Of a stretch of DNA of 64,000 nt, positions 22,459 to 54,771 are shown in pieces. Origin of the DNA: Schmidtea nova (Eukaryota); NCBI GenBank assembly GCA_044892505.1, contig CM097883.1:42036001-42100000 (forward strand), given 5' to 3'. The position numbers were made by a program, and so were the translations under genes. The notes below the pieces were generated by a model. The model did no database searches and was not told the origin of the DNA. It was given only the letters and a program-made list of their open reading frames with translations. Position 1 is the first letter of the stretch, and each line of letters begins with the position of its first letter.

Positions 22459-22577
22459 TTGATAAAAACCACTTTTTAATTTTTTTTGATGATTTCGTGC
22501 GTTTGAATTATTTTTGATTTTTGGACTTTAACCCCCCCCCCCATAGTACTTCTGACACCAGTTATTATGATCTAAAT

Positions 22578-24042: not shown

Positions 24043-26694
24043 TTACTTAAAAGATGGCTCATATGTGATTTGTAAAATAATAAAGTTTTAAGTGAACATT
24101 TTAAACTAAATGACTGGCCTATCAATACCCTTGTATCAAGAAAAAGTTCGCCCAACTAAGGATAAAAATCAATTACAATTTTTAATTTTTAAATATATTT
24201 TAAGAAATATTATTTTTATGTATCTTTTATTAAAATTGAAAAAATTATTCATAAAAATATGGTTGATAATACCCTCGTTCTGGTGCTTTATTTGTGAATA
24301 ACTATAGTTTACAGACATCGCACAATCATTGAACATGTTACTCAGTAAATTACTTCTCCGCATCCATATCCGGTAATTGTGAAATAAACGTAATTTATTA
24401 AACAGTACTTTCTACTCAGCTCTACGAGGAGATGCCCCAATGTCACGGCGAGTGACAAGCACTCATGTTCACATCGAATCACAACTATCAACCACATTTA
24501 TCATGTTTCTTATATATATAAATGCGAATATTGCGCTTTGATAACTGAAAATAATGATTTGCATCATCCTTTTGAGAAATTGAATTTCTGAAAATAAGCT
24601 TTTCTTAACAGGTTCACTTCTAGACGAAATTCAAATAAATGATTGAAATAAATATTATAAATAAAAATACAAGAATAAATTTGTATATATTTCGTTTTTT
24701 TATTCGTTCTACTGATTAATTAATTAGTAGTATTGACTTTATTTAATTTCCACCTGACAGCTTTTAATTACTTCCGATGATGGCGAAAAAGAAAATGCAA
24801 AATTGAGAATGAACATATGCGCTCTTCAGGGCCACAATTTATTATTGGAAAATGTTCTAAAAGATTTTAGATTATGAAAGAAATTGATTTAAAAAAGAAA
24901 ACAACCGAAAAAATGACAAAAAGATATTTAAAAAGAGATTGAAAAGTTACAAACACAGATCCAAAAAACAGAGAAAAGATTTGCGAATGATAAATGGTCT
25001 TTGTTAGGATCACAATTGATGATTGTGTACAAAAATTGTGCAATCAATTAAAACTAAGAATGTTTTTTTAAGTTAGTTTGTATATTTTATTTTATTTTTT
25101 ATATCGATTTCTTTCATCATATAAGTTATGTTAAGAATTACAAAATCTAAATCTTTATACATAGATATTTTAAATAATTTGTTGTTTGAATAATTGTTTT
25201 TTAGTGAATAAATATTTAAATTTAAAGTTAGTTCTTTTTTTGATATAAGGATGAATGATTTAGAAAACTCCATAACTGGTGACCACTCCGAAAATATTGA
25301 TTCAGTATCTAAAGGATAAACTAAATGTTTCTAGAATCACTGTCGAAACAAGCTCGTAGCATGCTTGACTTCAATGTGCGTAAATACGATGGAATAAGTA
25401 CTACAGAAGCAGAAAAGTGGCTGCAAGACATTATTGATCGGCTGCAAATAGAAAACCAGAGCCTGAAAAGTACTTTAGATATTTTATTGAAGGACGAAAC
25501 TTTTATTTTATGAAAATCTGTTAAAGACAGTTGTACAACAGACGATAAAGCAAAAAACTGGTTTATTGACGTCTTTACCATTAAGAAGGACTTAACAAAA
25601 CAAATAATGGATTTGGGTTCAATTCGACAAAGCCCTAACGAGAGATTTGCAACTTTTGAGATAAGAGTGCGCAATCTTGTCAAAGCAGTTTTTAATTCTG
25701 GAATGACTGAAGAAGATATTGTTCGTGATGTCAAATCCCATAAAGTGCGTGAAGATAGAAATAAAGATGTCTGCTTGTATCTTTTCAATCTCTTTTTGAA
25801 TCTCTTTTTGTCACCTTTTCGGTTGTTTTCGCTTTTAAATCGATTTCTTTCATCATCTAAAATTTTTTAGAACACTTTTTCGAATCATAAATTGTGGCCC
25901 TGAAGAGCGCATATGTTCATTCTCAATTTTGTATTTTCTTTTTCGCCATCATCGGAAGTAATTAAAAGCTGTCAGATGGAAATTAAATAAATTCAATACT
26001 ACTAATTAATTAATCAGTAGAAAGAATTAAAAAACAAAATATATACCAATTTATGCTTGTATTTTTATTTATAATATTTATTTCAATCATTTATTTGAAT
26101 TTCGTCTAGAAGCGAACCTGTTAAGAAAAGCTTATTTTCAGAAATTCAATTTCTCAAAAGGATGATGCAAATCATTATTTTCAGTTATCAAAGCGCAATA
26201 TTCGCATTTATATATATAAGAAACATGATAAATGTGGTTGATAGTTGTGATTCGATGTGAACATGAGTGCTTGTCACTCGCCATGACATTGGGGCATCTC
26301 CTCGTAGAGCTGAGTAGAAAGTACTGTTTAATAAATTACGTTTATTTCACAATTACCGGATATGGATGCGGAGAAGTAATTTACTGAGTAACATGTTCAA
26401 TGATTGTGCGATGTCTGTAAACTATAGTTATTCACAAATAAAGCACCAGAACGAGGGTATTATCAACCATATTTTTATTGTAATTTTGAATAATTTTTTC
26501 AATTTTAATAAAAGATTAATAAAAAGAATATTTCTTAAAATATATTTAAAATTAAAAATTGTAACTGATTTTTATCCTTAGATGGGCGAATTTTTTCTTG
26601 AGACAAGGGTATTGATAGGTCAGTCATTTAGATACAAATGTTCTCTTAAAAGTTTTTTATTTTACTAATCACATAAGAGCCATATTTTTAGGTT
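24043..26694. repeat. Foldback structure: inverted arms of about 920 bp (24043-24958 / 25768-26694) built on module A, with a spacer of about 810 bp
   Basis: Continuous reverse-complement match including atcggaagtaattaaaagctgtcag and tgtggccctgaagagcgcatatg. The same 64/71-aa spurious ORF appears on opposite strands. Confidence 0.92.
25325..25740 (+). pseudogene. Ty3/gypsy gag fragment with one in-frame TGA (25511-25513)
   Basis: ORFs 25325 and 25607 are in the same frame. FNVRKYDGISTTEAEKWLQDI and IRQSPNERFATFEIRVRNLV are retrotransposon-gag motifs. Confidence 0.75.
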
Positions 26695-26735
26695 AGGAAA
26701 TAAGAATAAGTCTCACAGAGTCTGATCTGGAAAAT

Positions 26736-27754
26736 GGTGATCTAGCACAGAATTGGTGACAAATGAAATTATGACGGAAACAGAGTTAGAAAGTGTACAG
26801 TTAGATTCGAAATGAAAAATGTGCAAATTTGAGAAAGAATGAATAGATAGTTAATTTATCCATAGTGAATGTTGAAAACGGGACAGGTATAGATTAGCAA
26901 ATGGCGAAGAACGTGGTGATTATGAATCGGTCAGAAAATGTTTAGAAAGATCGAAAAGCATGGAAGTGCGTAAAAACAGAAAATCATTATTAATTAATTA
27001 ATTGGCTAATGGATAACCAGAGCTAATGGGAAACATGAGAGAATGGAGAACCCGAGAGATGAAGGAAACTCGGGCTCAGCAAACAAGGAGAGTAAACAAA
27101 GTTGATTTCGGAAAGGTCATAATCTCGACATTATGAGTAATGGGAGTAAACAAAATTGGTTTTTACGAAAGGGTAACAGAATTAATATTAGTTAGTAACT
27201 AATTAATATTAGTTCTTAGATGACATTTAAGAAAACCAATTGTCAACGCGTTGTCAGACAGAAGAGATTTAACCGAAACCTAATTAATCAAAATGAGTAT
27301 TTTAGTATATAAGGAAACTCAGAATATAAAATAATCCCCAATTTATATAAGTTAGAGAGAAGAAATAGAGATTAGATTGAAGGAAAGAGAATTAGAAGAA
27401 TTAGAAACGTTTATGGAAGCAGTTAATTTAAAGGAAATAGTTAAAGAAAACAGTAGAGAAATTGAAGAGTTAAATTCAAGGAATTTTAAAATATTAGAGA
27501 AAAGGAGTTCAATCAAGAGGAAACCAGTGTATAAGGTGATTATTATTATAAAGCGCACGAGATCAAAATATCCCACAAAGGAACTCGATCAAGTAATTGA
27601 GACTTTCTATCATAGGTGTGTAATTTTTGAACTGTAAAAAGATTATATTGATTTAAAATAAATATACGTTTGGAGTGTTATTAGTTGCTGATTTACAGAG
27701 CGCGAGGAGACAGAGATAGCGACGATTATTTTATGATTTAATTAAAACCCAACA
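26736..27754 (+). mobile_element. 5'-truncated gypsy LTR of array unit 1 (repeated in units 2-4)
   Basis: Ends aaaacccaaca directly before a PBS. Shares gctaatggg repeats and the aaataaa...gaggag-cag...cccaaca 3' end with the solo LTRs at 50451 and 58773. Confidence 0.8.
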
Positions 27755-27762
27755 TATATTTT

Positions 27763-27780
27763 TGGTGAGGCCGACGTGAT
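27763..27780 (+). promoter_or_regulatory. Primer-binding site, tRNA-Trp type (also at 31840, 35917, 39982)
   Basis: tggtgaggccgacgtgat is an 18-nt TGG-start motif 8 bp after the LTR end. It differs at 2 positions from the canonical animal tRNA-Trp PBS tggtgaccccgacgtgat. Confidence 0.85.
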
Positions 27781-27799
27781 CTAAAGTCGGCGGAGAATT

Positions 27800-29255
27800 A
27801 ATGAAAATATTTTGGTAAAGGAATATTAAAAAAGAAATGTGAAGAAAAAGTTGAAACTTTCAAAGTTATTGAAAATTATGGAAAAGTGATTGATTTATCA
27901 AATAGTTAAAAATTACCGGTGACTCAATATGGAGCAGATCTGGTAGAGGTTGCTTATTTTTTAGGTGATTATTATATGTACGCTTCTACCTATGGATGGT
28001 CTCAAGCCATTATGATTCAAGAATTTTCAATAATAACTAAAAAGAGCTACAAATGAAGCTTGGCAGCAAGTTGATAAGAAGACCGTTGGAAATAATTGTG
28101 CCAAATAAAAAGATGCAGTGGCGATGAAATTGGTTGGATGAGATATTAAAAGAATAATGCGGCAAAGGTTTACAATCGCCTATCATTTAACCACTTTAAC
28201 AGATAAAACTTTCGAAGCAAAGGCTGAGCAAGTTGAAATGGTAAAATAAGTTAAAGAATTGCTTCAAGATCAGTTTTTAACGGCAGCTCGTCCTGAAATA
28301 AAAAGATTTCTAGTGTTACGTGGATATTTCGAATTTTAATGAATTGGCGAAGAAAGAAATTAAGATAGAATTAAATTTAAAGCACCCGAAAGTCATGTAT
28401 ACCGCCGTCAATGCCGAGAAACGAGAAAGGTCAATAACTCCAGTAAAGAAAGAATGGGAATCAAAGAATCCAATCCATCCAAACCGCTCTCCAAGATTAT
28501 GTAATAAATTTGAAGTTAATAAAGCAACCTTTAGTAGTCAGATCAACAAGAGATCGAATATTATTGTATGCGAGTATTGCAAGAAGGTCGGACATTATTC
28601 AAGTTAATGTTGGTTCATAAATGCCAGAAATGTTAGTCCTAAAAGAAAATATATGGAAAACAAGCCAAACAATGGTGACATCAAATGCAGTCGATGTAGA
28701 AAAATTGGCCTTATTAGCAGAAAATTTTTTTTCACCATCCACATCTCCGTCATCGAAACGGGATAAAGTGAATGCCAATGGACAAATTCAATGCCATTCA
28801 TGCAAAAGTTACAGTCACATATATCGATCTTGCTCAAGAAATTCAGATAGATTTGGAAGCCCAATTCTAAAGAAAACAATTAGATTTCAAGACGAATCGT
28901 CCAATTCCAATGTAGCTTATGCTGAAAAAGACGAGTTTAAAGAAAAAATGGAAAATGAATTTCGGGAAATGAGACAGAAATTAAACAAGTTGATGTTGAA
29001 ATTCGAATCAGATGATGATGCAGACTCCTTTACGGTATATGAAAATGTATTAGAAGTGAAAGGAAACTTGCTAATAAAGTAAAAATGACTTGTTGAACGA
29101 AAAGACTACGTTGTTGATAAAGAAAGTGGAAGGATAGCTAGCAAGGATGAAAAAAAAACAATCTTCGATTGAAGGAGTGGATGACAGAGCTAAGCCGAAT
29201 GCCACTCAATGAAAGAAAATTGAAAAGTATATTTACCTTATGTGCTAAGTCCTAC
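27800..29255 (+). pseudogene. Decayed gypsy gag with two CCHC zinc knuckles (unit 1; identical copies at +4077 and +8154)
   Basis: QDQFLTAARPEIKRFL, CEYCKKVGHYSS*C and CHSCKSYSHIYRSC, with several stops and frameshifts. Confidence 0.82.
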
Positions 29256-30069
29256 AAAGGTTGGAAAATGTAAAATTTACAATAGATAAATAAGTACAAA
29301 AGATTAATTAAAAATTGATATTTCGTGAATGAAATTGGTATTTACAGGCGGCAAATGGAGAAACGAGTAGGAATATGATAAAAAATATCAATGTTATTTG
29401 CATTTTCCGTGTCGATTTATCGTAAAATTCCTTTACTAGAGCACGTACTATTCTCTCAGTTTTATTTAAGCTATTCTGATCTCTTTCCTCTTGAAGTCTT
29501 TGTTCCATTTCACATCTTATTTCATTGACACTTTAAACTTGAATTCTTCCGAAATTTCATGACTTTTATTATATCTGCATTAACAGTATAGTACAACAAA
29601 AGCTCGATGAAAAATAAGAATTTTTTTAAAGAAAAACTTACGTTAATCTATGTTTTGGGTATGGCATACACACGCACCACGAATGCTCTTGTAGTAACAA
29701 TATGAATAAGAAAGAAGCACAAGTATAACAATTATTTCTTAATTTCTTTTACTGAACTACTCTTTACATCATCAGAGACACACACACGAACTTTTAGACA
29801 CTGCTGATTCAATTTTTACTAACAATTCGATTTTACAGAAAATTCTACAAAAAGTTTATGAAGTCATTTTGTAAGCTTTTTGAAAATAATTGCCTTGAAG
29901 ACGTTAAATATTTTTTTTTCCAATTAGTTCATTGAAATCTATGTAAGTGTCCAATGAAAATTGTTTTTCATAAATCCCTTTCCAAATAAGTACCAAATCA
30001 CAATAATAGCACTATTTTGTTTGACAATTTAATATTCTTAACATTTACACTCTGATTGTAAACATCAAG
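29256..30069 (+). repeat. Module B (local repeat; also in units 2-3, at 48470-49275 minus, 55518-56335 plus, diverged at 49752-50340 and 54820-55050)
   Basis: Near-identical copies share the 66-aa MEQRLQEERDQ ORF and are always joined to the 5' end of module A. Confidence 0.9.
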
Positions 30070-33000
30070 TCAATACTACTAATTAATTAATCAGTAGAAC
30101 GAATTAAAAAACAAAATATATACAAATTTATGCTTGTATTTTTATTTATAATATTTATTTCAATCATTTATTTGAATTTCGTCTAGAAGTGAACCTGTTA
30201 AGAAAAGCTTATTTTCAGAAATTCAATTTCTCAAAAGGATGATGCAAATCATTATTTTCAGTTATCATAGCGCAATATTCGCATTTATATATATAAGAAA
30301 CATGATAAATGTGGTTGATAGTTGTGATTCGATGTGAACATGAGTGCTTGTCACTCGCCATGACATTGGGGCATCTCCTCGTAGAGCTGAGTAGAAAGTA
30401 CTGTTTAATAAATTACGTTTATTTCACAATTACCGGATATGGATGCGGAGAAGTAATTTACTGAGTAACATGTTCAATGATTGTGCGATGTCTGTAAACT
30501 ATAGTTATTCACAAATAAAGCACCAGAACGAGGGTATTATCAACCATATTTTTATTGTAATTTTGAATAATTTTTTCAATTTTAATAAAAGATTAATAAA
30601 AAGAATATTTCTTAAAATATATTTAAAATTAAAAATTGTAACTGATTTTTATCCTTAGATGGGCGAATTTTTTCTTGAGACAAGGGTATTGATAGGTCAG
30701 TCATTTAGATACAAATGTTCTCTTAAAAGTTTTTTATTTTACTAATCACATAAGAGCCATATTTTTAGGTTAGGAAATAAGAATAAGTCTCACAGAGTCT
30801 GATCTGGAAAATGGTGATCTAGCACAGAATTGGTGACAAATGAAATTATGACGGAAACAGAGTTAGAAAGTGTACAGTTAGATTCGAAATGAAAAATGTG
30901 CAAATTTGAGAAAGAATGAATAGATAGTTAATTTATCCATAGTGAATGTTGAAAACGGGACAGGTATAGATTAGCAAATGGCGAAGAACGTGGTGATTAT
31001 GAATCGGTCAGAAAATGTTTAGAAAGATCGAAAAGCATGGAAGTGCGTAAAAACAGAAAATCATTATTAATTAATTAATTGGCTAATGGATAACCAGAGC
31101 TAATGGGAAACATGAGAGAATGGAGAACCCGAGAGATGAAGGAAACTCGGGCTCAGCAAACAAGGAGAGTAAACAAAGTTGATTTCGGAAAGGTCATAAT
31201 CTCGACATTATGAGTAATGGGAGTAAACAAAATTGGTTTTTACGAAAGGGTAACAGAATTAATATTAGTTAGTAACTAATTAATATTAGTTCTTAGATGA
31301 CATTTAAGAAAACCAATTGTCAACGCGTTGTCAGACAGAAGAGATTTAACCGAAACCTAATTAATCAAAATGAGTATTTTAGTATATAAGGAAACTCAGA
31401 ATATAAAATAATCCCCAATTTATATAAGTTAGAGAGAAGAAATAGAGATTAGATTGAAGGAAAGAGAATTAGAAGAATTAGAAACGTTTATGGAAGCAGT
31501 TAATTTAAAGGAAATAGTTAAAGAAAACAGTAGAGAAATTGAAGAGTTAAATTCAAGGAATTTTAAAATATTAGAGAAAAGGAGTTCAATCAAGAGGAAA
31601 CCAGTGTATAAGGTGATTATTATTATAAAGCGCACGAGATCAAAATATCCCACAAAGGAACTCGATCAAGTAATTGAGACTTTCTATCATAGGTGTGTAA
31701 TTTTTGAACTGTAAAAAGATTATATTGATTTAAAATAAATATACGTTTGGAGTGTTATTAGTTGCTGATTTACAGAGCGCGAGGAGACAGAGATAGCGAC
31801 GATTATTTTATGATTTAATTAAAACCCAACATATATTTTTGGTGAGGCCGACGTGATCTAAAGTCGGCGGAGAATTAATGAAAATATTTTGGTAAAGGAA
31901 TATTAAAAAAGAAATGTGAAGAAAAAGTTGAAACTTTCAAAGTTATTGAAAATTATGGAAAAGTGATTGATTTATCAAATAGTTAAAAATTACCGGTGAC
32001 TCAATATGGAGCAGATCTGGTAGAGGTTGCTTATTTTTTAGGTGATTATTATATGTACGCTTCTACCTATGGATGGTCTCAAGCCATTATGATTCAAGAA
32101 TTTTCAATAATAACTAAAAAGAGCTACAAATGAAGCTTGGCAGCAAGTTGATAAGAAGACCGTTGGAAATAATTGTGCCAAATAAAAAGATGCAGTGGCG
32201 ATGAAATTGGTTGGATGAGATATTAAAAGAATAATGCGGCAAAGGTTTACAATCGCCTATCATTTAACCACTTTAACAGATAAAACTTTCGAAGCAAAGG
32301 CTGAGCAAGTTGAAATGGTAAAATAAGTTAAAGAATTGCTTCAAGATCAGTTTTTAACGGCAGCTCGTCCTGAAATAAAAAGATTTCTAGTGTTACGTGG
32401 ATATTTCGAATTTTAATGAATTGGCGAAGAAAGAAATTAAGATAGAATTAAATTTAAAGCACCCGAAAGTCATGTATACCGCCGTCAATGCCGAGAAACG
32501 AGAAAGGTCAATAACTCCAGTAAAGAAAGAATGGGAATCAAAGAATCCAATCCATCCAAACCGCTCTCCAAGATTATGTAATAAATTTGAAGTTAATAAA
32601 GCAACCTTTAGTAGTCAGATCAACAAGAGATCGAATATTATTGTATGCGAGTATTGCAAGAAGGTCGGACATTATTCAAGTTAATGTTGGTTCATAAATG
32701 CCAGAAATGTTAGTCCTAAAAGAAAATATATGGAAAACAAGCCAAACAATGGTGACATCAAATGCAGTCGATGTAGAAAAATTGGCCTTATTAGCAGAAA
32801 ATTTTTTTTCACCATCCACATCTCCGTCATCGAAACGGGATAAAGTGAATGCCAATGGACAAATTCAATGCCATTCATGCAAAAGTTACAGTCACATATA
32901 TCGATCTTGCTCAAGAAATTCAGATAGATTTGGAAGCCCAATTCTAAAGAAAACAATTAGATTTCAAGACGAATCGTCCAATTCCAATGTAGCTTATGCT

Positions 33001-36000
33001 GAAAAAGACGAGTTTAAAGAAAAAATGGAAAATGAATTTCGGGAAATGAGACAGAAATTAAACAAGTTGATGTTGAAATTCGAATCAGATGATGATGCAG
33101 ACTCCTTTACGGTATATGAAAATGTATTAGAAGTGAAAGGAAACTTGCTAATAAAGTAAAAATGACTTGTTGAACGAAAAGACTACGTTGTTGATAAAGA
33201 AAGTGGAAGGATAGCTAGCAAGGATGAAAAAAAAACAATCTTCGATTGAAGGAGTGGATGACAGAGCTAAGCCGAATGCCACTCAATGAAAGAAAATTGA
33301 AAAGTATATTTACCTTATGTGCTAAGTCCTACAAAGGTTGGAAAATGTAAAATTTACAATAGATAAATAAGTACAAAAGATTAATTAAAAATTGATATTT
33401 CGTGAATGAAATTGGTATTTACAGGCGGCAAATGGAGAAACGAGTAGGAATATGATAAAAAATATCAATGTTATTTGCATTTTCCGTGTCGATTTATCGT
33501 AAAATTCCTTTACTAGAGCACGTACTATTCTCTCAGTTTTATTTAAGCTATTCTGATCTCTTTCCTCTTGAAGTCTTTGTTCCATTTCACATCTTATTTC
33601 ATTGACACTTTAAACTTGAATTCTTCCGAAATTTCATGACTTTTATTATATCTGCATTAACAGTATAGTACAACAAAAGCTCGATGAAAAATAAGAATTT
33701 TTTTAAAGAAAAACTTACGTTAATCTATGTTTTGGGTATGGCATACACACGCACCACGAATGCTCTTGTAGTAACAATATGAATAAGAAAGAAGCACAAG
33801 TATAACAATTATTTCTTAATTTCTTTTACTGAACTACTCTTTACATCATCAGAGACACACACACGAACTTTTAGACACTGCTGATTCAATTTTTACTAAC
33901 AATTCGATTTTACAGAAAATTCTACAAAAAGTTTATGAAGTCATTTTGTAAGCTTTTTGAAAATAATTGCCTTGAAGACGTTAAATATTTTTTTTTCCAA
34001 TTAGTTCATTGAAATCTATGTAAGTGTCCAATGAAAATTGTTTTTCATAAATCCCTTTCCAAATAAGTACCAAATCACAATAATAGCACTATTTTGTTTG
34101 ACAATTTAATATTCTTAACATTTACACTCTGATTGTAAACATCAAGTCAATACTACTAATTAATTAATCAGTAGAACGAATTAAAAAACAAAATATATAC
34201 AAATTTATGCTTGTATTTTTATTTATAATATTTATTTCAATCATTTATTTGAATTTCGTCTAGAAGTGAACCTGTTAAGAAAAGCTTATTTTCAGAAATT
34301 CAATTTCTCAAAAGGATGATGCAAATCATTATTTTCAGTTATCATAGCGCAATATTCGCATTTATATATATAAGAAACATGATAAATGTGGTTGATAGTT
34401 GTGATTCGATGTGAACATGAGTGCTTGTCACTCGCCATGACATTGGGGCATCTCCTCGTAGAGCTGAGTAGAAAGTACTGTTTAATAAATTACGTTTATT
34501 TCACAATTACCGGATATGGATGCGGAGAAGTAATTTACTGAGTAACATGTTCAATGATTGTGCGATGTCTGTAAACTATAGTTATTCACAAATAAAGCAC
34601 CAGAACGAGGGTATTATCAACCATATTTTTATTGTAATTTTGAATAATTTTTTCAATTTTAATAAAAGATTAATAAAAAGAATATTTCTTAAAATATATT
34701 TAAAATTAAAAATTGTAACTGATTTTTATCCTTAGATGGGCGAATTTTTTCTTGAGACAAGGGTATTGATAGGTCAGTCATTTAGATACAAATGTTCTCT
34801 TAAAAGTTTTTTATTTTACTAATCACATAAGAGCCATATTTTTAGGTTAGGAAATAAGAATAAGTCTCACAGAGTCTGATCTGGAAAATGGTGATCTAGC
34901 ACAGAATTGGTGACAAATGAAATTATGACGGAAACAGAGTTAGAAAGTGTACAGTTAGATTCGAAATGAAAAATGTGCAAATTTGAGAAAGAATGAATAG
35001 ATAGTTAATTTATCCATAGTGAATGTTGAAAACGGGACAGGTATAGATTAGCAAATGGCGAAGAACGTGGTGATTATGAATCGGTCAGAAAATGTTTAGA
35101 AAGATCGAAAAGCATGGAAGTGCGTAAAAACAGAAAATCATTATTAATTAATTAATTGGCTAATGGATAACCAGAGCTAATGGGAAACATGAGAGAATGG
35201 AGAACCCGAGAGATGAAGGAAACTCGGGCTCAGCAAACAAGGAGAGTAAACAAAGTTGATTTCGGAAAGGTCATAATCTCGACATTATGAGTAATGGGAG
35301 TAAACAAAATTGGTTTTTACGAAAGGGTAACAGAATTAATATTAGTTAGTAACTAATTAATATTAGTTCTTAGATGACATTTAAGAAAACCAATTGTCAA
35401 CGCGTTGTCAGACAGAAGAGATTTAACCGAAACCTAATTAATCAAAATGAGTATTTTAGTATATAAGGAAACTCAGAATATAAAATAATCCCCAATTTAT
35501 ATAAGTTAGAGAGAAGAAATAGAGATTAGATTGAAGGAAAGAGAATTAGAAGAATTAGAAACGTTTATGGAAGCAGTTAATTTAAAGGAAATAGTTAAAG
35601 AAAACAGTAGAGAAATTGAAGAGTTAAATTCAAGGAATTTTAAAATATTAGAGAAAAGGAGTTCAATCAAGAGGAAACCAGTGTATAAGGTGATTATTAT
35701 TATAAAGCGCACGAGATCAAAATATCCCACAAAGGAACTCGATCAAGTAATTGAGACTTTCTATCATAGGTGTGTAATTTTTGAACTGTAAAAAGATTAT
35801 ATTGATTTAAAATAAATATACGTTTGGAGTGTTATTAGTTGCTGATTTACAGAGCGCGAGGAGACAGAGATAGCGACGATTATTTTATGATTTAATTAAA
35901 ACCCAACATATATTTTTGGTGAGGCCGACGTGATCTAAAGTCGGCGGAGAATTAATGAAAATATTTTGGTAAAGGAATATTAAAAAAGAAATGTGAAGAA

Positions 36001-39000
36001 AAAGTTGAAACTTTCAAAGTTATTGAAAATTATGGAAAAGTGATTGATTTATCAAATAGTTAAAAATTACCGGTGACTCAATATGGAGCAGATCTGGTAG
36101 AGGTTGCTTATTTTTTAGGTGATTATTATATGTACGCTTCTACCTATGGATGGTCTCAAGCCATTATGATTCAAGAATTTTCAATAATAACTAAAAAGAG
36201 CTACAAATGAAGCTTGGCAGCAAGTTGATAAGAAGACCGTTGGAAATAATTGTGCCAAATAAAAAGATGCAGTGGCGATGAAATTGGTTGGATGAGATAT
36301 TAAAAGAATAATGCGGCAAAGGTTTACAATCGCCTATCATTTAACCACTTTAACAGATAAAACTTTCGAAGCAAAGGCTGAGCAAGTTGAAATGGTAAAA
36401 TAAGTTAAAGAATTGCTTCAAGATCAGTTTTTAACGGCAGCTCGTCCTGAAATAAAAAGATTTCTAGTGTTACGTGGATATTTCGAATTTTAATGAATTG
36501 GCGAAGAAAGAAATTAAGATAGAATTAAATTTAAAGCACCCGAAAGTCATGTATACCGCCGTCAATGCCGAGAAACGAGAAAGGTCAATAACTCCAGTAA
36601 AGAAAGAATGGGAATCAAAGAATCCAATCCATCCAAACCGCTCTCCAAGATTATGTAATAAATTTGAAGTTAATAAAGCAACCTTTAGTAGTCAGATCAA
36701 CAAGAGATCGAATATTATTGTATGCGAGTATTGCAAGAAGGTCGGACATTATTCAAGTTAATGTTGGTTCATAAATGCCAGAAATGTTAGTCCTAAAAGA
36801 AAATATATGGAAAACAAGCCAAACAATGGTGACATCAAATGCAGTCGATGTAGAAAAATTGGCCTTATTAGCAGAAAATTTTTTTTCACCATCCACATCT
36901 CCGTCATCGAAACGGGATAAAGTGAATGCCAATGGACAAATTCAATGCCATTCATGCAAAAGTTACAGTCACATATATCGATCTTGCTCAAGAAATTCAG
37001 ATAGATTTGGAAGCCCAATTCTAAAGAAAACAATTAGATTTCAAGACGAATCGTCCAATTCCAATGTAGCTTATGCTGAAAAAGACGAGTTTAAAGAAAA
37101 AATGGAAAATGAATTTCGGGAAATGAGACAGAAATTAAACAAGTTGATGTTGAAATTCGAATCAGATGATGATGCAGACTCCTTTACGGTATATGAAAAT
37201 GTATTAGAAGTGAAAGGAAACTTGCTAATAAAGTAAAAATGACTTGTTGAACGAAAAGACTACGTTGTTGATAAAGAAAGTGGAAGGATAGCTAGCAAGG
37301 ATGAAAAAAAAACAATCTTCGATTGAAGGAGTGGATGACAGAGCTAAGCCGAATGCCACTCAATGAAAGAAAATTGAAAAGTATATTTACCTTATGTGCT
37401 AAGTCCTACAAAGGTTGGAAAATGTAAAATTTACAATAGATAAATAAGTACAAAAGATTAATTAAAAATTGATATTTCGTGAATGAAATTGGTATTTACA
37501 GGCGGCAAATGGAGAAACGAGTAGGAATATGATAAAAAATATCTATGTTATTTGCATTTTCCGTGTCGATTTATCGTAAAATTCCTTTACTAGAGCACGT
37601 ACTATTCTCTCAGTTTTATTTAAGCTATTCTGATCTCTTTCCTCTTGAAGTCTTTGTTCCATTTCACATCTTATTTCATTGACACTTTAAACTTGAATTC
37701 TTCCGAAATTTCATGACTTTTATTATATCTGCATTAACAGTATAGTACAACAAAAGCTCGATGAAAAATAAGAATTTTTTAAAGAAAAACTTACGTTAAT
37801 CTATGTTTTGGGTATGGCATACACACGCACCACGAATGCTCTTGTAGTAACAATATGAATAAGAAAGAAGCACAAGTATAACAATTATTTCTTAATTTCT
37901 TTTACTGAACTACTCTACATCATCAGACACACACACACGAAATTTTAGACACTGCTGATTCAATTTTACTAACAATTCGATTTTACAGAAAAATTCTACA
38001 AAAAGTTTATGAAGTCATTTTGTAAGCTTTTTGAAAATAATTGCCTTGAAGACGTTAAATATTTTTTTTCCAATAGTTCATTGAAATCTATGTAAGTGTC
38101 CAATGAAAATTGTTTTTCATAAATCCCTTTCCAAATAAGTACCAAATCACAATAATAGCACTATTTTGTTTGACAATTTAATATTCTTAACATTTACACT
38201 CTGATTGTAAACATCAAGTCAATACTACTAATTAATTAATCAGTAGAACGAATAAAAAAACGAAATATATACAAATTTATTCTTGTATTTTTATTTATAA
38301 TATTTATTTCAATCATTTATTTGAATTTCGTCTAGAAGCGAACCTGTTAAGAAAAGCTTCTTTTCAGAAATTCAATTTCTCAAAAGGATGATGCAAATCA
38401 TTATTTTCAGTTATCAAAGCGCAATATTCGCATTTATATATATAAGAAACATGATAAATGTGGTTGATAGTTGTGATTCGATGTGAACATGAGTGCTTGT
38501 CACTCGCCATGACATTGGGGCATCTCCTCGTAGAGCTGAGTAGAAAGTACTGTTTAATAAATTACGTTTATTTCACAATTACCGGATATGGATGCGGAGA
38601 AGTAATTTACTGAGTAACATGTTCAATGATTGTGCGATGTCTGTAAACTATAGTTATTCACAAATAAAGCACCAGAACGAGGGTATTATCAACCATATTT
38701 TTATTGTAATTTTGAATAATTTTTTCAATTTTAATAAAAGATTAATAAAAAGAATATTTCTTAAAATATATTTAAAATTAAAAATTGTAACTGATTTTTA
38801 TCCTTAGATGGGCGATTTTTTTCTTGAGACAAGGGTATTGATAGGTCAGTCATTTAGATACAAATGTTCTCTTAAAAGTTTTTTATTTTACTAATCACAT
38901 AAGAGCCATATTTTTAGGTTAGGAAATAAGAATAAGTCTCACAGAGTCTGATCTGGAAAATGGTGATCTAGCACAGAATTGGTGACAAATGAAATTATGA

Positions 39001-40039
39001 CGGAAACAGAGTTAGAAAGTGTACAGTTAGATTCGAAATGAAAAATGTGCAAATTTGAGAAAGAATGAATAGATAGTTAATTTATCCATAGTGAATGTTG
39101 AAAACGGGACAGGTATAGATTAGCAAATGGCGAAGAGCGTGGTGATTAGGAATCCGTCAGAAAATGTTTAGAAAGGTTGAAAAGCATGGAAGAGCGTAAA
39201 AACAAAAAATCAATAATAAATTAATTAATTGGCTAATGGATAACCAGAGCTAATGGGAAACATGAGAGAATGGAGAACCCGAGAGATGAAGGAAACTCGG
39301 GCTCAGCAAACAAGGAAAGTAAACAAAGTTGATTTCGGAAAGGTCATAATCTCGACATTATGAGTAATGGGAGTAAACAAAATTGGTTTTTACGAAAGGG
39401 TAACAGAAGAGTGTAATCAATTAATACTTGTTCTCAGATGACATTTAAGAAAACCAATTTTCAACGCGTTGTCAGACAAAAGAGATTCGACCGAAACCTA
39501 CTTAAACAAAATGAGTATTCTAGTATATAAGGAAACTCAGAATTGAAAACAATCGCCAATTTATTCAAGTTAGAGAGAAGAAAAAGAGATTAGATTGAAG
39601 GAAAGAGAATTAGAAGAATTAGAAACGATTATGGAAGCAGATAAATTAAAGATAATAGTTAGAGAAAACAGTAAAGAGAAATTGAAGAGTTAAATTCAAG
39701 GAATTTTAAAATATTAGAGAAAAGCAGTTCAATCAAGAGGAAACCAGTGTATAAGGTGATTATTATTATTAAGCGCACGAGATCAAAATATCCACAACGG
39801 AACTCGATCAAGTAATTGAAACTTTCTATCATAGAGTTGTAAATATTGAACTGTAAAAAGATTGTATTGATTTAAAATAAATATACGTTTGGAGTGTTAT
39901 TAGTTGCTGATTTACAGAGCGCGAGGAGACAGAGATAGCGACGATTATTTTATGTTTTAATTAAAACCCAACATATATTTTTGGTGAGGCCGACGTGATC
40001 TAAAGTCGGCGTAGAATTAATGAACAATTTTTAGTAAGT

Positions 40040-41110
40040 CAAATTTATAAATACATAATTCATGATGGGATATTGAAATGCGTGAAAAATGATAAGGTAT
40101 TAATTATGATCCCAGTGAAAGATAGAGATTCATTAATGATACAATATCATAATGGAGCCTTAAGAGGACATTTATCGGCGAGAAAATCTTTATCCAGACT
40201 AAAATGGAAATAATACTGACCATCGACGGAACAAGATGTCAAAGATTGGTGCAAAAGTTGCAAAAACTATATTACTTGACAAAATACAGAAGGAAATATT
40301 AAAGTACCTTTAAATCCAATGCCAGCTCCAACCGCGCCAATGGAGATGATAGCAATGGACATAATTGGACCATTACCTGAACCAATAAAAGGAAATAGAT
40401 GCATTGTAGTATTTTGTGATTACCTTACAAGGTGGCCTGAAGCTTATATAATACCAAATCAAAGGACCGATACAGTAGCCAAAATATTTGTTGAGAACAT
40501 TACTTTTAGATATGGCACTCCTAAGAAGCTACTAACTGATCAAGGTTCAAATTTTCAAAGTGAACTGTTTAAATCAATAACAGAGTTATTTGGAATATGG
40601 AAGTTAAACACTCCCCCTATCATTCACAGACTGATGGGTTGGTTGAAAGATTTAATGAGACATTAATGACTATGATCTCTTCTATATAAAATCTTATACA
40701 AAATTTTGTTTATTTGTGCACCGGAATGCCGTCAATCCAAGTACAGATGAGAGACCTTTTTATTTAATGTATTTAAGAAGGAATAACATGCCGATTGATT
40801 TACAATTCCAAGCAACAGTATTGAAATATATGGAAATTCCAGATTTCAAATCAATTATGCAAGAAAGAATGCAATCTGTGTGGAATAAAGCTTGGTTAAC
40901 AATAAAGCACAATCAAGAAAAGTATAAAAAATCTTAGGACAAGAAGGCACATGCCCACGGAATAAAAATCGGAGACTTAGTATATCTCAATATGCCAGAG
41001 CCACTCAAAGGCATGTCGCCTAAGTTACAGAAACCATTTAAAGGACCATATAAAGTGTGCGACACAACCGAAACAAATTTAAAGTTACTAGCATTCAAGA
41101 GTAAAAATGC
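40040..41110 (+). pseudogene. Ty3/gypsy integrase remnant (HHCC, DDE core, GPY/F)
   Basis: YHNGALRGHL...WCKSCK; AMDIIGPLP...CDYLTRWPEA...LTDQGSNFQS (ORF 40319-40666); frameshifted PYHSQTDGLVERFN; KPFKGPYKV. Confidence 0.95.
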
Positions 41111-41451
41111 TAACCCTATAATACTACTTTTGACATTGTGGTCAATATCTGAAAACTAATCAGTAAAGGAACATTACTTTTCAAGTTATACTGGCTAGAC
41201 ACTTGAACTTCTGATGCAAAGTTGGACATCAGGACAAGGTATGTGCTTTCTTCAAATTATTATCAGATAAATTTTGGCATAAAAAGCACTAGGGTAGGGC
41301 TAACAAACGTGGATTACAACAGTAGGAGCTACAATAATAATAAATAATAAAAATAAAATCAATTAGCAAAGAAAACCACTACTGAGTTATTAATAATCGA
41401 ATTGAAATTGTGATTGAGATTGATATTCTGATAATATAATTATGATAAACA

Positions 41452-41784
41452 TAAAGATCACAGTATACATTGTAAAAATTCACAGAGTTCGATTTGATAA
41501 TATAGGTTTGACCGGAATGTTTCTGCAGTTAGAAAAATTAATGCCATTCAAGTTTCTGCAGTTACATTGATCAATGAATATATATTTAACAAAGACAAAT
41601 AATTTTATGAAGCAAATTAATCATCCATATCATCGAGGAACTCTAAATAGTTTCCACCATGCGGGATGCAACGTTGCCAACGTGCAGGGAGCTTGTTAAT
41701 GCCAGCTGCGAAGAAATTTTCATTTTTATTCTCTAAAGATCACAGTATACATTGTAAAAATTCACAGAGTTCGATTTGATAATA
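41452..41784 (+). repeat. 51-bp perfect direct repeat (41452-41502 / 41734-41784)
   Basis: taaagatcacagtatacattgtaaaaattcacagagttcgatttgataata occurs twice. Confidence 0.9.
41635..41725 (-). pseudogene. Mariner transposase C-terminal fragment
   Basis: NENFFAAGINKLPARWQRCIPHGGNYLE matches the mariner end motif GIxKLxxRWxxCxxxxGxY. Confidence 0.8.
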
Positions 41785-41946
41785 AGAGTGTATCATATTA
41801 AGAAAATAAAATAGTTTAATAAAAGATCCTGCGACGGTATTCTCAGTGGCAGTGAGGGAGTCATTTTAAAACAGAAAATATTTATATAATATTTATTCAA
41901 AGTAAAATTAAAGAAAATTACCTAATTTTCTTGAAAAATAAAATTT

Positions 41947-42706
41947 TCAATTTTCAGATTTAGGGAAAGGAAAAGAATAATGACAAAATATTCTATTCAA
42001 ATCAACAGATTTTGTCGTCTTGTTGTTATACTTCGTTATGATATCTCTACTGATTATTAGATTGATTTTATCTGGTCTGCAAACTGACATAAAACTGTTT
42101 TCATTTAGAACATGGTTAATTCTTTCACGGTACAACAAATTTAATGCTGTTCCATTCTTGTTTGTTCTCTCGTAATTGTAGTAGAATATCCTCCTAATAT
42201 CTCGAAGTTGGTCAATTTTAGAAAGCTCGGTACAACTCTAATCCCTACACTTTCTGAGTTTCAGCCCTTAATAAACTGTCTCTTGATAGTTTCTTGTCCC
42301 GTAAGTATCTGAATATTGTTAAAGACAATATTGATCATTTGGAAATATTCTCTGGAACTCTTCAAAATTGTAGTTGACAATTGTATCGATATTTCAACAT
42401 TGTTGATTGTATAGCTTTCAACAACTTCGCCTAAGTGCCATTTGGATATAATAAACAACTGTCTTCCGTCAAAACAAAATCTTTGACTGTTGTTTTTACT
42501 GTAAACAAGAACCAATAGTAACTCTAATTTAGTACAAATGCTAATACTATATCGTACATGTGAAATGGACTATCGACTTTTATGTTGAAATTAGCATAGA
42601 ATGATTTCAGATTGACTACTCTTCCATCTTCCTTGACTTTATTGGTAATTGTATTGGGATGTAGAGCAGATTCAATAATTGGAATAATTTAGAATGTTTC
42701 GGCCAT
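41947..42706 (-). pseudogene. piwi: PIWI-clade Argonaute pseudogene fragment (N domain, L1, start of PAZ)
   Basis: Joining frames gives KEDGRVVNLKSFYANFNIKVDSPFHMYDIV / RFCFDGRQLF...YFQMINIVF...TGQETIKRQF...EILGGYSTTI / NGTALNL...INHVL...IITKYNNKT. These are the FDG, QxxNI, GYxTxI and TxYNNKT landmarks in the correct order and spacing, with 2 stops and 2 frameshifts. Confidence 0.8.
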
Positions 42707-43024
42707 GATTTTCTGAGAAGAAAATAAAAAGTGAATTTTATATGATTATTTAAACAAGGATTTTTTATAAAAATTATTTAATTTAATAACACATTAATAA
42801 TTTAATTATTAAATTAATGTAAATTTTAAATTGGAATGTCTGATGCAGTACAATAAAATCCCACCAAAGTACGCAGAGCGTCTCTATGGACTGAAAAAAT
42901 GGAAGGTCATAATCAAAGAAATATTGAGGGATTTGAAGTGCTCTTTGAGAAGTAAATGGAAGATTGTCTTGAGGAGGTTGGATATTAGGCGTGTTTGTAA
43001 AGGTCGTCAGTTGTTTCGTGTCTT

Positions 43025-43805
43025 CTAGAATGTCTTTATCAATGACATTCTCTTTTGTGATATGATTATTTGGCGCTTCGTCGTGCTCGAGAGTAAAAAC
43101 GATGGTTTTAATCTTGTAAGGTTGACCATAATGTGATTATTGTAAATATCAAGTCTCGTTGTGTTTTTGTACAGTTTGATGATGTGGAATGGACATTTGT
43201 ATCTACGTTTGAGGTTTAATGAGTCGATTGTTTTCATCCAAGAGTGGGTTGAAGAAGAAAGCGATTGTGGTATATACGGTTTGTATGATGTAGAGTATGT
43301 GAATGACGGATTTGTGTCAAGACTCAAATACTTTTGCGTGTGAGGTTGATCTAGTCTAGTGGTGAATTGTTATAGAGATCGATGAGTTCGTTAGGCATGA
43401 AGGTGTTAGTGAAGGTGACACACCTCTTGAGCAATTTGTTGTGTTGTACCATCCTAATAAAATGAAAGGTAAAGTTTTTGCCCATGAAGTTGACGTTGAG
43501 AGATTTCTGAGCGATTATTTCAAGGTCCAGTGAGCGAGTTCAACAAGACCATTTGTTTGCAGGATATAGGCACTTGTGTGCAAATGTTTGAGGCGGAGAC
43601 TGTTTGTAAGATGATCGAAAAAATCTGATTCGAAGCTCTGATTCGAATTGTGTCCCTTTGTCCGTTTTTGTGGTGATGTCAAAAATTGGAATGGCCTCGA
43701 ATCAGCGTGTTTTGCGATCAATCATTGTCTGTATGTAACAGAATCCGTCTTCTGTGGGGAGTTTGCTTGCTAGGTCGGTGTGGAGTATGTCAAATCTTGA
43801 ACAAT
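43025..43805 (-). pseudogene. Gypsy integrase remnant, CsRn1-like
   Basis: RFDILHTDLASKLPTEDGFCYIQTMIDRKTR*FEAIP...TDKGTQFES...TSAYILQTNGLVELAHWTLK...THSWMK...YKCPF...VNLTRLKPSF. Confidence 0.85.
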
Positions 43806-43887
43806 TCAAATTTTGATTTTTAGAATTAATTAAAGAAATAATATTTTTTTATTTAGTTCAATGAACTCTATGGAAAATTGTAAAAGT

Positions 43888-44630
43888 TAATACTACTAAT
43901 TAATTAATCAGTAGAAAGAATTAAAAAACGAAATATATACCAATTTATGCTTTTATTTTTATTTATAATATTTATTTCAATCATTTATTTGAATTTCGTC
44001 TAGAAGTGAACCTGTTAAGAAAAGCTTATTTTCAGAAATTCAATTTCTCAAAAGGATGATGCAAATCATTATTTTCAATTATCAAAGCGCAATATTCGCA
44101 TTTATATATATAAGAAACATAATAAATGTGGTTGATAGTTGTGATTCGATGTGAACATGAGTGCTTGTCACTCGCCATGACATTGGGGCATCTCCTCGTA
44201 GAGCTGAGTAGAAAGTACTGTTTAATAAATTACGTTTATTTCACAATTACCGGATATGGATGCGGAGAAGTAATTTACTGAGTAACATGTTCAATGATTG
44301 TGCGATGTCTGTAAACTATAGTTATTCACAAATAAAGCACCAGAACGAGGGTATTATCAACCATATTTTTATTGTAATTTTGAATAATTTTTTCAATTTT
44401 AATAAAAGATAAATAAAAAGAATATTTCACAAAATATATTTATAAATTAAAAATTGTAACTGATTTTTATCCTTAGATTGGCGAACTTCTTCTTGAGACA
44501 AGGGTATTGATAGGTCAGTCATTTAGTTTAAAATGTTCTCTTAAAAGTTCAATATTTTACTAGTCACATATGAGCCATCATTTTAAGTTAGGAAATAATA
44601 AAAAGTCTCACAGAGTCGGATCTGGAAAAT
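43888..44630 (+). repeat. Module A, stand-alone copy
   Basis: Aligns end to end with 25993-26735, ends at the same tctggaaaat, and truncates the adjacent mariner. Confidence 0.93.
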
Positions 44631-45396
44631 ATAGCGGATGGGCAAGCAATTCGTCATGTAATTCCACTAAGCTTGCTGTTGCAATTACCCTTTTGTGTGT
44701 TGCCGTGATGAAAAATCATTTTTTGTGGTCGACAGCGGTCATTTTGCTTTGAGTTTATTTGTTAAACGATCCAGCAGTGCTGGACAGCATTCACCAGTAA
44801 TTGTTCGACACTTTTGAAGATACTAGATGTGTATTATCCAATGTCCATCCATAAAAACAGTTGCTATCGCTTTTCTAGCCATTGTTTTCATTATTATGTT
44901 AGCTCTGTTGTGTAGTAGTCAATCCGTGTTTCATCAACCGTTTGTATCGCCGTACAATTTCATGTGGATTACGTTGAAACAGCTTTAATCATCGCTGTGA
45001 ATCATCAACTCGTTGTTTTTGATCATTAGTTAAAGAACTCGGCACCAACCTTGCAATCAGCTTTTCATATACAAGTGTTCATGAACGATGTCGAAATCAA
45101 GTTCAGTCGAGATGTTTGTAATCTTGGCTATCTCACGGATCTTCACTTTGCAATCGTTTTGAATTCATTCGTGTAATTTCTTATGATTTCGGAATACTTG
45201 ATTCGTTTGGACGACCTCTGTGGCCATCATCTGAATGGCTCCTTCGATCATGTTTAAATTCATTATACCAATAAATAACAACTGTTTTTCTGTGTAGATT
45301 TCTTTTAATGTTTGTCAAGCGATTCTCTTGCTTATACCGTATTTTTTCAGATTAAAGAACAATATTTCATCAACACAAAAAATTCACTTTTTTCAT
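44631..45396 (-). pseudogene. Mariner transposase remnant, irritans (Himar1-like) subfamily
   Basis: MKKSEF/VLMKYCSLI*KNTV, EFKHDRRSHSDDGHRGRP, ARLVPSSLTNDQKQRVDDSQR, ATVFMDGHWIIHI*YLQK. The 3' part is lost at module A. Confidence 0.88.
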
Positions 45397-54616: not shown

Positions 54617-54771
54617 NNNNNNNNNNNNNNNNNNNNNNNNNNNNNNNNNNNNNNNNNNNNNNNNNNNNNNNNNNNNNNNNNNNNNNNNNNNNNNNNNNNN
54701 NNNNNNNNNNNNNNNNNNNNNNNNNNNNNNNNNNNNNNNNNNNNNNNNNNNNNNNNNNNNNATATCTTGTT
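54617..54771. other. Assembly gap (155 N)
   Basis: N run. Confidence 0.99.

What the first reader, a model, noticed from the sequence alone, without database searches (positions are those of the whole stretch)
41947..42706. Hidden PIWI pseudogene in the middle of a transposon graveyard
Two short anonymous ORFs plus flanking frames join into about 250 aa of a PIWI-clade Argonaute (N-domain YDIV/FDG, L1 GYSTTI, PAZ ITKYNNKT). No intron is evident over 760 bp, and it is truncated at the 3' end within PAZ. That argues for DNA-level duplication or capture rather than a 5'-truncated retrocopy. It lies antisense to the array, among gypsy, mariner and hairpin-forming repeats. If this block is transcribed as a piRNA/siRNA source, it could produce small RNAs against the parent piwi mRNA, a feedback on the silencing machinery. 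That last step is hypothesis only.
Basis: partly seen in the sequence, partly recalled or inferred. Interest (0 to 1): 0.75.

Follow-up and report, generated by a model that had tools for sequence, protein, structure and literature searches.

The report
Broken, apparently multicopy planarian piwi-1 fragment
This is a dead copy of the first third of the flatworm stem-cell gene piwi-1, lying right behind a retrotransposon remnant; read depth suggests the genome holds tens to over a hundred similar pieces, which raises the untested possibility that a mobile element captured and spread part of the gene that silences it.

Summary
Window 42679-41989 (minus strand) matches planarian SMEDWI-1 residues 25-258 in three colinear pieces (61-68% identity, E 7e-73), with two frameshifts and an in-frame stop. 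It decays neutrally: 26 of 100 conserved versus 25 of 88 variable sites changed. It belongs to the piwi-1 lineage of a dugesiid planarian.

The 'no intron' argument is empty, because smedwi-1 has no listed intron between residues 60 and 665. A strong splice acceptor 6 nt before an ATG does support an unspliced template.

New: contigs of four public runs (one study) pile up on three coding sites at about 30-165 times single-copy depth, from up to 41 distinct contigs per site. This points to a multicopy family. The piece lies directly downstream of a same-strand Gypsy integrase remnant, but no shared junction was shown.

This copy is about 15-19% diverged, the range where Drosophila captures gave almost no piRNAs. 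There are no RNA data.

Verdict: a dead passenger fragment of an amplified family. Capture by a transposon as anti-silencing cargo is possible (about 0.2) and testable.

The parts
41947..42706 (-). Whole pseudogene fragment of piwi-1 (N domain, linker 1, start of PAZ), ATG to last stop
   Evidence: tblastn E 7e-73 to SMEDWI-1; 150/219 aa identical to SMEDWI-1, 145/219 to DjPiwiA, 89-90/219 to the three PIWI-2-type proteins
42542..42679 (-). Piece 1, SMEDWI-1 aa 25-70; ends at a deletion of about 10 nt with frameshift
   Evidence: other contigs carry extra bases at 42543-42544 (table 4)
42168..42542 (-). Piece 2, SMEDWI-1 aa 74-198, with an in-frame TGA at 42263-42261
41989..42165 (-). Piece 3, SMEDWI-1 aa 200-258 (start of PAZ), after a 1-nt frameshift; homology clear to about 42010 and then fades
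   Evidence: 16 contigs of run X1 hold the extra base at 42166
42713..42731 (-). Splice-acceptor-like site (15 of 16 pyrimidines + CAG), 6 nt upstream of the ATG; inferred 3' end of piwi-1 intron 1
   Evidence: one of only 4 such sites on both strands of the 64-kb window; smedwi-1 intron 1 lies between -21 and +176
42730..42850 (-). Very AT-rich stretch (10-18% GC): intron remnant or start of an LTR; at least its piwi-proximal part is shared with other copies
   Evidence: GC bins; variants at 42740 in 22 contigs and at 42758/42760 in 9/7 contigs of X1
42850..43850 (-). Decayed Gypsy-type integrase 3' region, same strand and directly upstream of the piwi piece; a polypurine-tract/LTR-start-like junction near 42851 is my reading from recalled patterns, not tested
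   Evidence: 43028-43369 resembles integrase C-terminal families (MLVIN_C, score 0.96); no meaningful Pfam hit for 4 of 4 pieces; no relevant PDB hit for the 1 piece tried
40004..41156 (+). Integrase region of the large plus-strand Gypsy remnant (context)
   Evidence: Pfam rve E 8.9e-11 at 40280-40663; weak Integrase_H2C2 and SH3_Tf2-1 hits
25987..40037 (+). Local tandem array, 4077-bp unit, about 3.5 copies, 96-100% identical (context)

Best explanation
It is a non-functional 5' fragment of the planarian piwi-1 gene (smedwi-1/DjpiwiA lineage). SHOWN: identity, lesions, neutral decay, retained acceptor-like site, and position directly behind a same-strand Gypsy integrase remnant. INFERRED from contig depth: it is one of tens to about 150 diverged piwi-1-like copies in this genome. 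INFERRED mechanism: a piece running from the end of intron 1 into the long coding exon was copied from genomic DNA or unspliced RNA, lost its 3' two thirds, and was spread passively as a passenger of a mobile element or of repeated segmental duplication. The adjacent Gypsy is the leading candidate carrier, for example by insertion into intron 1 and read-through transduction; this step is a guess. This copy makes no protein and is probably too diverged to be an efficient source of piRNAs against piwi-1 mRNA, so it is most likely inert today.
For: Homology and lesions. Changes are as frequent at sites invariant in five triclad PIWIs as at variable sites (26/100 vs 25/88, Fisher p 0.74), whereas the intact control Dendrocoelum PIWI-1 shows 10/101 vs 42/90 (p < 0.00001). 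The terminal branch is 0.41 against 0.05-0.10 for the two intact orthologues. The acceptor has 15/16 pyrimidines and is 1 of 4 such sites in the window, where smedwi-1 has intron 1. Summed contig depth at three coding sites is 105-166 times the depth of perfectly matching unique flanking contigs in X1, and 28-87, 34-79 and 30-81 times in X2-X4. One site is covered by 41, 22, 24 and 25 contigs, and variants with their own internal deletions or replacements occur at single-copy depth (joints 42383-42554, 42153-42249, 42317-42359). As a rough calibration, a segment with 8 copies in this window gives 6-12 times in X1. Divergence: at least 65 base changes over 189 codons, about 15% per replacement site, and 62 differences over 334 nt to the longest piwi contig listed. 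In Drosophila, captures at 79-82% identity gave almost no piRNAs on the host gene (PMC13534243, passages).
Against: The tool states that summed contig depth is no copy number. The four runs are one study with library type not on record, only 40 of 1228 variant rows were shown, and the baseline may be haplotype depth, which would inflate the estimate 2-3 fold. Depth is much lower at the deletion site 42544 (4-26 times) and upstream (4-81 times), and the 8-copy control scatters from 1 to 34 times in X2-X4. No listed contig bridges the Gypsy-piwi junction or the 3' junction, and Gypsy sites are only 5-29 times single-copy, lower than the piwi sites, so co-amplification is not shown. Whether the 3' part of piwi-1 is equally abundant was not tested. 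An environmental piwi-1 is called as two ORFs with a break at aa 101-109 (P0016, P0011/P0012); if that is an intron shared with this host's parent gene, the window copy, which is continuous there, would be processed. Three stretches of 11-12 identical residues remain, and 6-15% of 30-mers would have at most 2 mismatches, so pairing with the parent mRNA is not excluded.
Confidence: 0.55

Rival explanations
1. Anti-silencing cargo: a Gypsy (or other) element family captured the piwi-1 5' piece and spread with it. piRNAs made against the element then also cut piwi-1 mRNA, as for piwi/aub/nxf2 captures by Drosophila telomeric elements. The window holds an old, decayed member.
For: Same-strand position about 140 nt behind the integrase end. 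High depth runs through both parts. Similar divergence from other family members: 49-56 differences over about 330-400 nt for the Gypsy part and 62 over 334 nt for the piwi part (table 8). An excess of piwi over internal Gypsy depth would fit an LTR position with solo LTRs (inference). Precedent in PMC13534243; planarian Burro Gypsy elements carry host-like domains (PMC6431247). SMEDWI-1 is part of the neoblast post-transcriptional defence (PMC8532177).
Against: No bridging contig was listed, there is no second (LTR) copy of the piwi piece in the window, and there are no small-RNA data. The piece is about 700 bp against 140-235 bp in Drosophila, and this copy's identity is in the range that did not work there. 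Planarian Seed clusters are depleted of antisense genic sequence (10.64898/2026.01.28.702291).
Confidence: 0.2
2. The host has a large array or family of full-length piwi-1 genes (birth-and-death), and this fragment is debris of one, truncated by neighbouring insertions or deletions. The depth then reflects whole genes, some of them functional.
For: FLiwi genes are expanded in S. mediterranea: eight genes collapsing to five, possibly transcribed pseudogenes (PMC8191739). The retained acceptor fits gene duplication, and at least 16 contigs keep the frame at 42166.
Against: The known expansion is under ten genes, not tens to hundreds. The protein searches returned only single piwi-1 clusters per named species. 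Several variants carry their own deletions.
Confidence: 0.12
3. Processed retrocopies: piwi-1 mRNA is abundant in neoblasts, the heritable cells, and was reverse-transcribed many times; this is a 3'-deleted retrocopy.
For: smedwi-1 is highly expressed in neoblasts (PMC8544814). There is no intron in the copied coding part. The two-ORF environmental copy may mark an intron at aa 101-109.
Against: A strong acceptor and AT-rich upstream DNA are retained and shared with other copies. The 5' part is kept and the 3' part is missing, the opposite of LINE-type truncation (established knowledge).
Confidence: 0.06
4. A lone or low-copy pseudogene; the depth signal is an artefact of summing short overlapping contigs at 80% likeness in an AT-rich, heterozygous or polyploid genome, or of RNA in the runs.
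For: The tool's own warning, the unknown library type, the wide scatter between sites and runs, and the fact that only 14-27% of the sampled words were found in these runs.
Against: The mid-coding sites are not low-complexity, and 19-41 contigs agree on the same alternative base at 93-100% of depth (42289, 42424). Unique flanks give long, perfectly matching contigs at low depth. Only about a fifth to a quarter of depth at 42166 shows the frame-keeping base, which does not fit one dominant mRNA.
Confidence: 0.07

Closest known systems
SMEDWI-1 (Q2Q5Y9) / DjPiwiA (D2Z0D8), planarian piwi-1, FLiwi group
   Same: Colinear over aa 25-258, 66-68% identical; an acceptor where smedwi-1 has intron 1
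   Different: Two frameshifts, stops, no MID/PIWI domains, most of PAZ missing, no purifying selection; apparently one of many copies
FLiwi expansion in Schmidtea mediterranea (PMC8191739, passages read)
   Same: Extra piwi-1/2-like genes, some possibly pseudogenes
   Different: Eight annotated genes there, against tens to over a hundred inferred diverged pieces here
piwi/aub/nxf2 fragments captured by Drosophila telomeric non-LTR elements (PMC13534243, passages read)
   Same: A piRNA-pathway gene fragment next to retrotransposon sequence and apparently amplified
   Different: There the fragments are 140-235 bp, about 90% identical, embedded in defined elements, with piRNA evidence. Here about 700 bp with an intron end, 81-85% identity, an LTR-type neighbour, the carrier unproven and no RNA data
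Burro giant Gypsy elements of Dugesiidae (PMC6431247, passages read)
   Same: Planarian Gypsy elements with host-like cargo
   Different: Burro cargo consists of in-frame polyprotein domains (BIR, MATH, ankyrin), and the passages mention no PIWI; the neighbour here was not assigned to Burro
Planarian Spread piRNA clusters (bioRxiv 10.64898/2026.01.28.702291; abstract, section 6 and passages read)
   Same: Pseudogene-like loci can yield piRNAs
   Different: They are mostly sense-genic and low-output; nothing shows that this locus is a cluster

Membership tests
Planarian piwi-1 (FLiwi) lineage, by descent | Closest to SMEDWI-1/DjPiwiA rather than PIWI-2, PIWI-3 or AGO | tested here: met
   150/219 and 145/219 vs 89-90/219 identity; the PIWI-2-type clade is set apart with support 99, but nodes around the window copy have only 33-47. 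PIWI-3 and AGO were not in the tree; neither appeared in the searches
Planarian piwi-1 (FLiwi) lineage, by descent | The N-terminal region of the family is PIWI-clade | tested here: met
   The profile of four intact relatives hits 11 PDB sequences, all PIWI proteins
Functional PIWI protein | Intact ORF with PAZ, MID and PIWI domains | tested here: not met
   Frameshifts, stops, ends early in PAZ, no 3' part in the window
Functional PIWI protein | Purifying selection | tested here: not met
   26/100 vs 25/88, p 0.74; control 10/101 vs 42/90
Unprocessed (duplicated) pseudogene | Retains intron sequence of the parent | tested here: inconclusive
Processed pseudogene | Spliced junctions, poly(A) tail, target-site duplication, 5' truncation | tested here: not met
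   Acceptor retained, 3' end missing, no poly(A) at the 3' junction on reading the sequence; target-site duplications were not searched for
Transposon-captured piRNA-pathway gene fragment (TART-like anti-silencing) | Fragment fixed inside copies of one element family (shared junctions) | tested here: inconclusive
   Adjacent same-strand integrase and high depth, but no bridging contig among the pieces shown
Transposon-captured piRNA-pathway gene fragment (TART-like anti-silencing) | Multicopy | tested here: inconclusive
   About 30-165 times baseline depth and up to 41 contigs per site; an indirect measure
Transposon-captured piRNA-pathway gene fragment (TART-like anti-silencing) | Identity to the host gene high enough for targeting (about 90%) | tested here: not met
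   This copy is about 81-85% by indirect estimates; other copies are unknown
Transposon-captured piRNA-pathway gene fragment (TART-like anti-silencing) | Antisense piRNAs with ping-pong or phased piRNAs on the host mRNA | not testable with these tools
   No RNA holder listed
Planarian piRNA cluster (Seed or Spread) | Dense single-strand piRNA production; chromatin marks | not testable with these tools
   No small-RNA data; transposon remnants lie on both strands

The most novel reading that the evidence does not exclude
A planarian Gypsy-type LTR element captured the 5' third of piwi-1 together with the end of its first intron and amplified it to tens or hundreds of copies. Element-directed piRNAs would then also knock down piwi-1 in neoblasts. 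This would be transposon counter-defence by piwi capture outside Drosophila telomeres, in an LTR element and in adult somatic stem cells.
Probability: 0.2. Interest if true: 0.8.

Novelty: new variant of a known kind. Interest (0 to 1): 0.5.

Why it matters
A single dead piwi fragment is ordinary. A family of tens to over a hundred piwi-1 pieces was not found in my literature searches (open-access library only, and the 2020 review by Kim et al. was not read). It would matter in practice for piwi-1 read mapping, qPCR, RNAi and piRNA annotation in this animal. If the pieces ride in a Gypsy element, the conflict between transposons and the piRNA pathway that is known from Drosophila telomeres could be tested directly in planarian stem cells, where RNAi and PIWI immunoprecipitation are routine.

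Tried and rejected
No whole genome is held for this window, so copies and junctions could not be counted directly.

Pfam found no Argonaute family in 3 of 3 pieces, and the PDB gave nothing for 2 of 2 pieces. This reflects decay plus the divergence of planarian PIWI N-termini: even intact SMEDWI-1 scores below the ArgoN cut-off. The second hit of the representative search, P0006, is a repeat-rich stick-insect protein and was rejected as spurious.

The metagenome scan gave 5 loci, none planarian: 4 distant PIWIs at 22-27% and 1 short match. It covered only 19 of 64 parts. The viral scan gave none. The search for shorter proteins gave 2 hits among 290 candidates and no set of fragments from this host.

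No RNA holder was listed; this is not evidence either way. Runs X2-X4 held only 14-17% of the words.

I considered reading the 760-bp segment at 43870-44630 as the 3' LTR of the plus-strand Gypsy, which would enclose the piwi piece. I rejected it because the segment has 8 local copies with different flanks, no clear LTR ends and low depth. I also considered that most copies share the 42166 frameshift, since only about 18-27% of depth shows the extra base. I left this open because contigs whose alignment stops at the gap may also count in the depth.

The species was not determined: at 31 sites where SMEDWI-1 and DjPiwiA differ, the copy follows SMEDWI-1 at 13, DjPiwiA at 8 and neither at 10. 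Earlier scan findings: 5 look-ups, nothing. No fold or complex job was run, because it would not change the reading of a dead gene.

Full report
OBSERVATION. The window is AT-rich eukaryotic DNA (19-33% GC), full of repeats. No genome is held for it. The middle piece of the finding (42144-42569, stop read as X) found 2 proteins among 134 candidates: SMEDWI-1 of Schmidtea mediterranea (E 6e-43, 68%) and DjPiwiA of Dugesia japonica (E 8e-41, 64%). The 3' piece independently found SMEDWI-1 among 1.84 billion representatives (E 2e-11); the other hit was spurious. tblastn of SMEDWI-1 against the window gives three colinear minus-strand pieces, aa 25-70, 74-198 and 200-258, joint E 7e-73, and nothing else below E 0.39. 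The lesions are two frameshifts (near 42543 and 42166), a TGA at 42263-42261 and a TAA five codons after the ATG at 42706. The pieces do not reach any Argonaute Pfam model on their own.

IDENTITY AND DECAY. With X at the breaks the peptide is 150/219 identical to SMEDWI-1, 145/219 to DjPiwiA, 109/218 to Dendrocoelum PIWI-1 and 89-90/219 to three PIWI-2-type proteins. In the tree the PIWI-2-type clade is separate (support 99), but the nodes around the copy are weak (33-47). The host is therefore most likely a dugesiid planarian; the species was not determined. The copy has changed 26 of 100 sites invariant in five triclad PIWIs and 25 of 88 variable sites (p 0.74), while intact Dendrocoelum PIWI-1 gives 10 of 101 and 42 of 90. 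It has decayed without selection on the protein. At least 65 base changes are needed over 189 codons, about 15% per replacement site.

TEMPLATE. Table S1 of PMC8544814 (six rows seen) lists primers flanking smedwi-1 intron 1 and intron 2. Mapped on the protein, they put intron 1 between -21 and +176 of the CDS and intron 2 between aa 671 and 741; the computed second product, 251 bp, equals the table's value. Three environmental piwi-1 ORFs stop at aa 715, which fits intron 2. If the authors' numbering covers all introns, aa 60-665 is one exon, and the absence of introns over most of the copy says nothing. The informative feature is upstream: a tract of 15/16 pyrimidines plus CAG ending at 42713, 6 nt before an ATG. 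It is 1 of only 4 such sites on both strands of the window, and it is followed upstream by DNA of 10-18% GC. One result points the other way: an environmental piwi-1 is called as two ORFs with a break at aa 101-109 (P0016 and P0011/P0012; both clusters list an 8,948-bp contig). That break may be damage or a lineage-specific intron.

COPY NUMBER. Four public runs of one organism and one study hold 14-27% of the words of the stretch. Their library type is not on record; I take them for DNA because they give millions of contigs and long, perfectly matching contigs over unique non-coding flanks. Laid on 38000-47000 at 80% likeness, unique flanks give contigs of depth 35-36 (X1), 7-15 (X2), 8-9 (X3) and 9-16 (X4). 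At three coding sites of the piwi piece (42166, 42289, 42424) the summed depth is 105-166, 28-87, 34-79 and 30-81 times that. At the deletion site 42544 it is only 4-26 times, and at two upstream sites 4-81 times (using 11 displayed sites and 1 bin; the variant table showed 40 of 1228 rows). Site 42289 is covered by 41, 22, 24 and 25 contigs that carry the same other base. Some variants have their own internal deletions or replacements at single-copy depth. A segment with 8 copies in this window gives 6-12 times in X1 but scatters from 1 to 34 times in the other runs. The tool warns that summed depth is no copy number, and the baseline may be haplotype depth, so I claim only an order of magnitude: tens to perhaps 150 diverged piwi-1-like sequences. 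Whether the excess extends to the 3' two thirds of the gene was not tested.

CONTEXT. About 140 nt upstream of the acceptor, on the same strand, ends a decayed integrase region (43850 to about 42850). Its ORF 43028-43369 matches integrase C-terminal clusters (score 0.96); Pfam and the PDB gave nothing useful for its pieces. A polypurine-tract/LTR-start-like junction near 42851 is my reading from recalled Gypsy patterns. Gypsy sites have 5-29 times baseline depth, lower than the piwi coding sites, and no listed contig bridges the junction. Downstream lie mariner-like remnants (label recalled; no Pfam hit) and then the plus-strand Gypsy integrase (rve E 9e-11) at the end of a 4077-bp tandem array. 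The piece is thus antisense to the array but sense to its nearest element. In S. mediterranea, Seed clusters are transcribed antisense to LTR elements and are depleted of antisense genic sequence (10.64898/2026.01.28.702291; abstract, section 6 and passages). A transcript antisense to the large array would be sense to piwi, and only one antisense to the nearer element would be antisense to piwi. Nothing shows that the block is transcribed.

MECHANISM. Best reading (0.55): a piece from the end of intron 1 into the long coding exon was copied from an unspliced template, truncated in PAZ, and spread passively with a mobile element or by segmental duplication; this copy is dead and probably inert. 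Rivals: anti-silencing cargo of a Gypsy or other element (0.2); debris of a large family of whole piwi-1 genes (0.12); depth artefact with few copies (0.07); processed retrocopies (0.06). On the regulatory idea: in Drosophila, telomeric elements captured 140-235 bp of piwi, aub or nxf2; captures at about 90% identity give piRNAs on the host gene, and those at 79-82% gave almost none (PMC13534243, passages). This copy is about 81-85% identical by indirect estimates (62 differences over 334 nt to the longest piwi contig listed). It keeps three runs of 11-12 identical residues, and 6-15% of 30-mers would have at most two mismatches. Planarian SMEDWI-3 cleaves well-paired targets and only binds poorly paired ones (PMC6824462, passages), and pseudogene transcripts can be turned into piRNAs (PMC10954484, passages). 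Weak activity is not excluded, and younger copies could matter more.

COMPARISON AND NOVELTY. By descent it belongs to the piwi-1/FLiwi lineage; it is not a functional PIWI. Known FLiwi expansion in S. mediterranea amounts to eight genes, some perhaps pseudogenes (PMC8191739, passages). Burro elements carry other host-like domains (PMC6431247, passages). Passages of PMC11410931, PMC8532177 and PMC13563047 mention no piwi fragment family. Ten library searches (listings only unless named above) turned up no report of many piwi-1 fragments, or of piwi capture by a transposon, in planarians. The library is open-access only, the bioRxiv supplements were closed and not seen, supplements of the genome papers were not searched, and Kim et al. 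2020 was not read. Membership of the TART-like capture class is not established: shared junctions and copy number are inconclusive, identity is too low in this copy, and piRNAs could not be tested.

VERDICT. A real, neutrally decaying 5' fragment of planarian piwi-1 from an unspliced template. It is ordinary as a single locus, but apparently one of a large family and sits where a Gypsy passenger would sit. New variant of a known kind; interest 0.5. The capture and anti-silencing reading has probability 0.2 and would deserve 0.8.

Noticed in passing
window 46497-46964 (+): Intact single-exon ORF of 155 aa with hydrophobic N-terminal and transmembrane segments and two PPxY motifs, at single-copy depth. 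It resembles TMEM52/WBP-1-like small membrane proteins (score 0.93, family uncertain). Probably a real host gene inside the repeat block.
   Followed up: partly
window 25987-40037 (+): Tandem array of a 4077-bp Gypsy-containing unit; the first three units are about 99-100% identical. A very recent amplification or an assembly artefact.
   Followed up: partly
window 24045-24961, 25766-26735, 30064, 34141, 38213, 43870-44630, 47949-48467, 56326-56901: A segment of about 500-900 bp present 8 times in both orientations, with low depth in the runs, so a local rather than genome-wide repeat. A 2-kb inverted duplicate (47901-49877 vs 54909-56907, 98%) points to a locally rearranged block.
   Followed up: partly
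window 13527-15329 (+): 600-aa open frame with a weak hAT dimerisation hit at its C-terminus (E 0.026); possibly an intact hAT-type transposase.
   Followed up: no
window 41452-41502 and 41734-41784: Exact 51-bp direct repeat flanking a mariner-like C-terminal remnant (label recalled) just 3' of the piwi piece; one contig of X1 skips 41492-41790.
   Followed up: no
P0016 and P0011/P0012 (environmental proteins, 8,948-bp contig listed): A planarian piwi-1 called as two ORFs with a break at aa 101-109 and an end at aa 715; either an extra intron or a damaged copy in another species.
   Followed up: partly
window 21915-22458 and 54617-54761: Two runs of N (544 and 145 bases); the overlapping 200-aa 'ORFs' listed near 21833-22527 are artefacts of the first.
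   Followed up: yes
window 43117-43252: Very high depth spikes (up to about 154,000 in X1) inside the integrase remnant; a short stretch shared with a very abundant repeat family.
   Followed up: no
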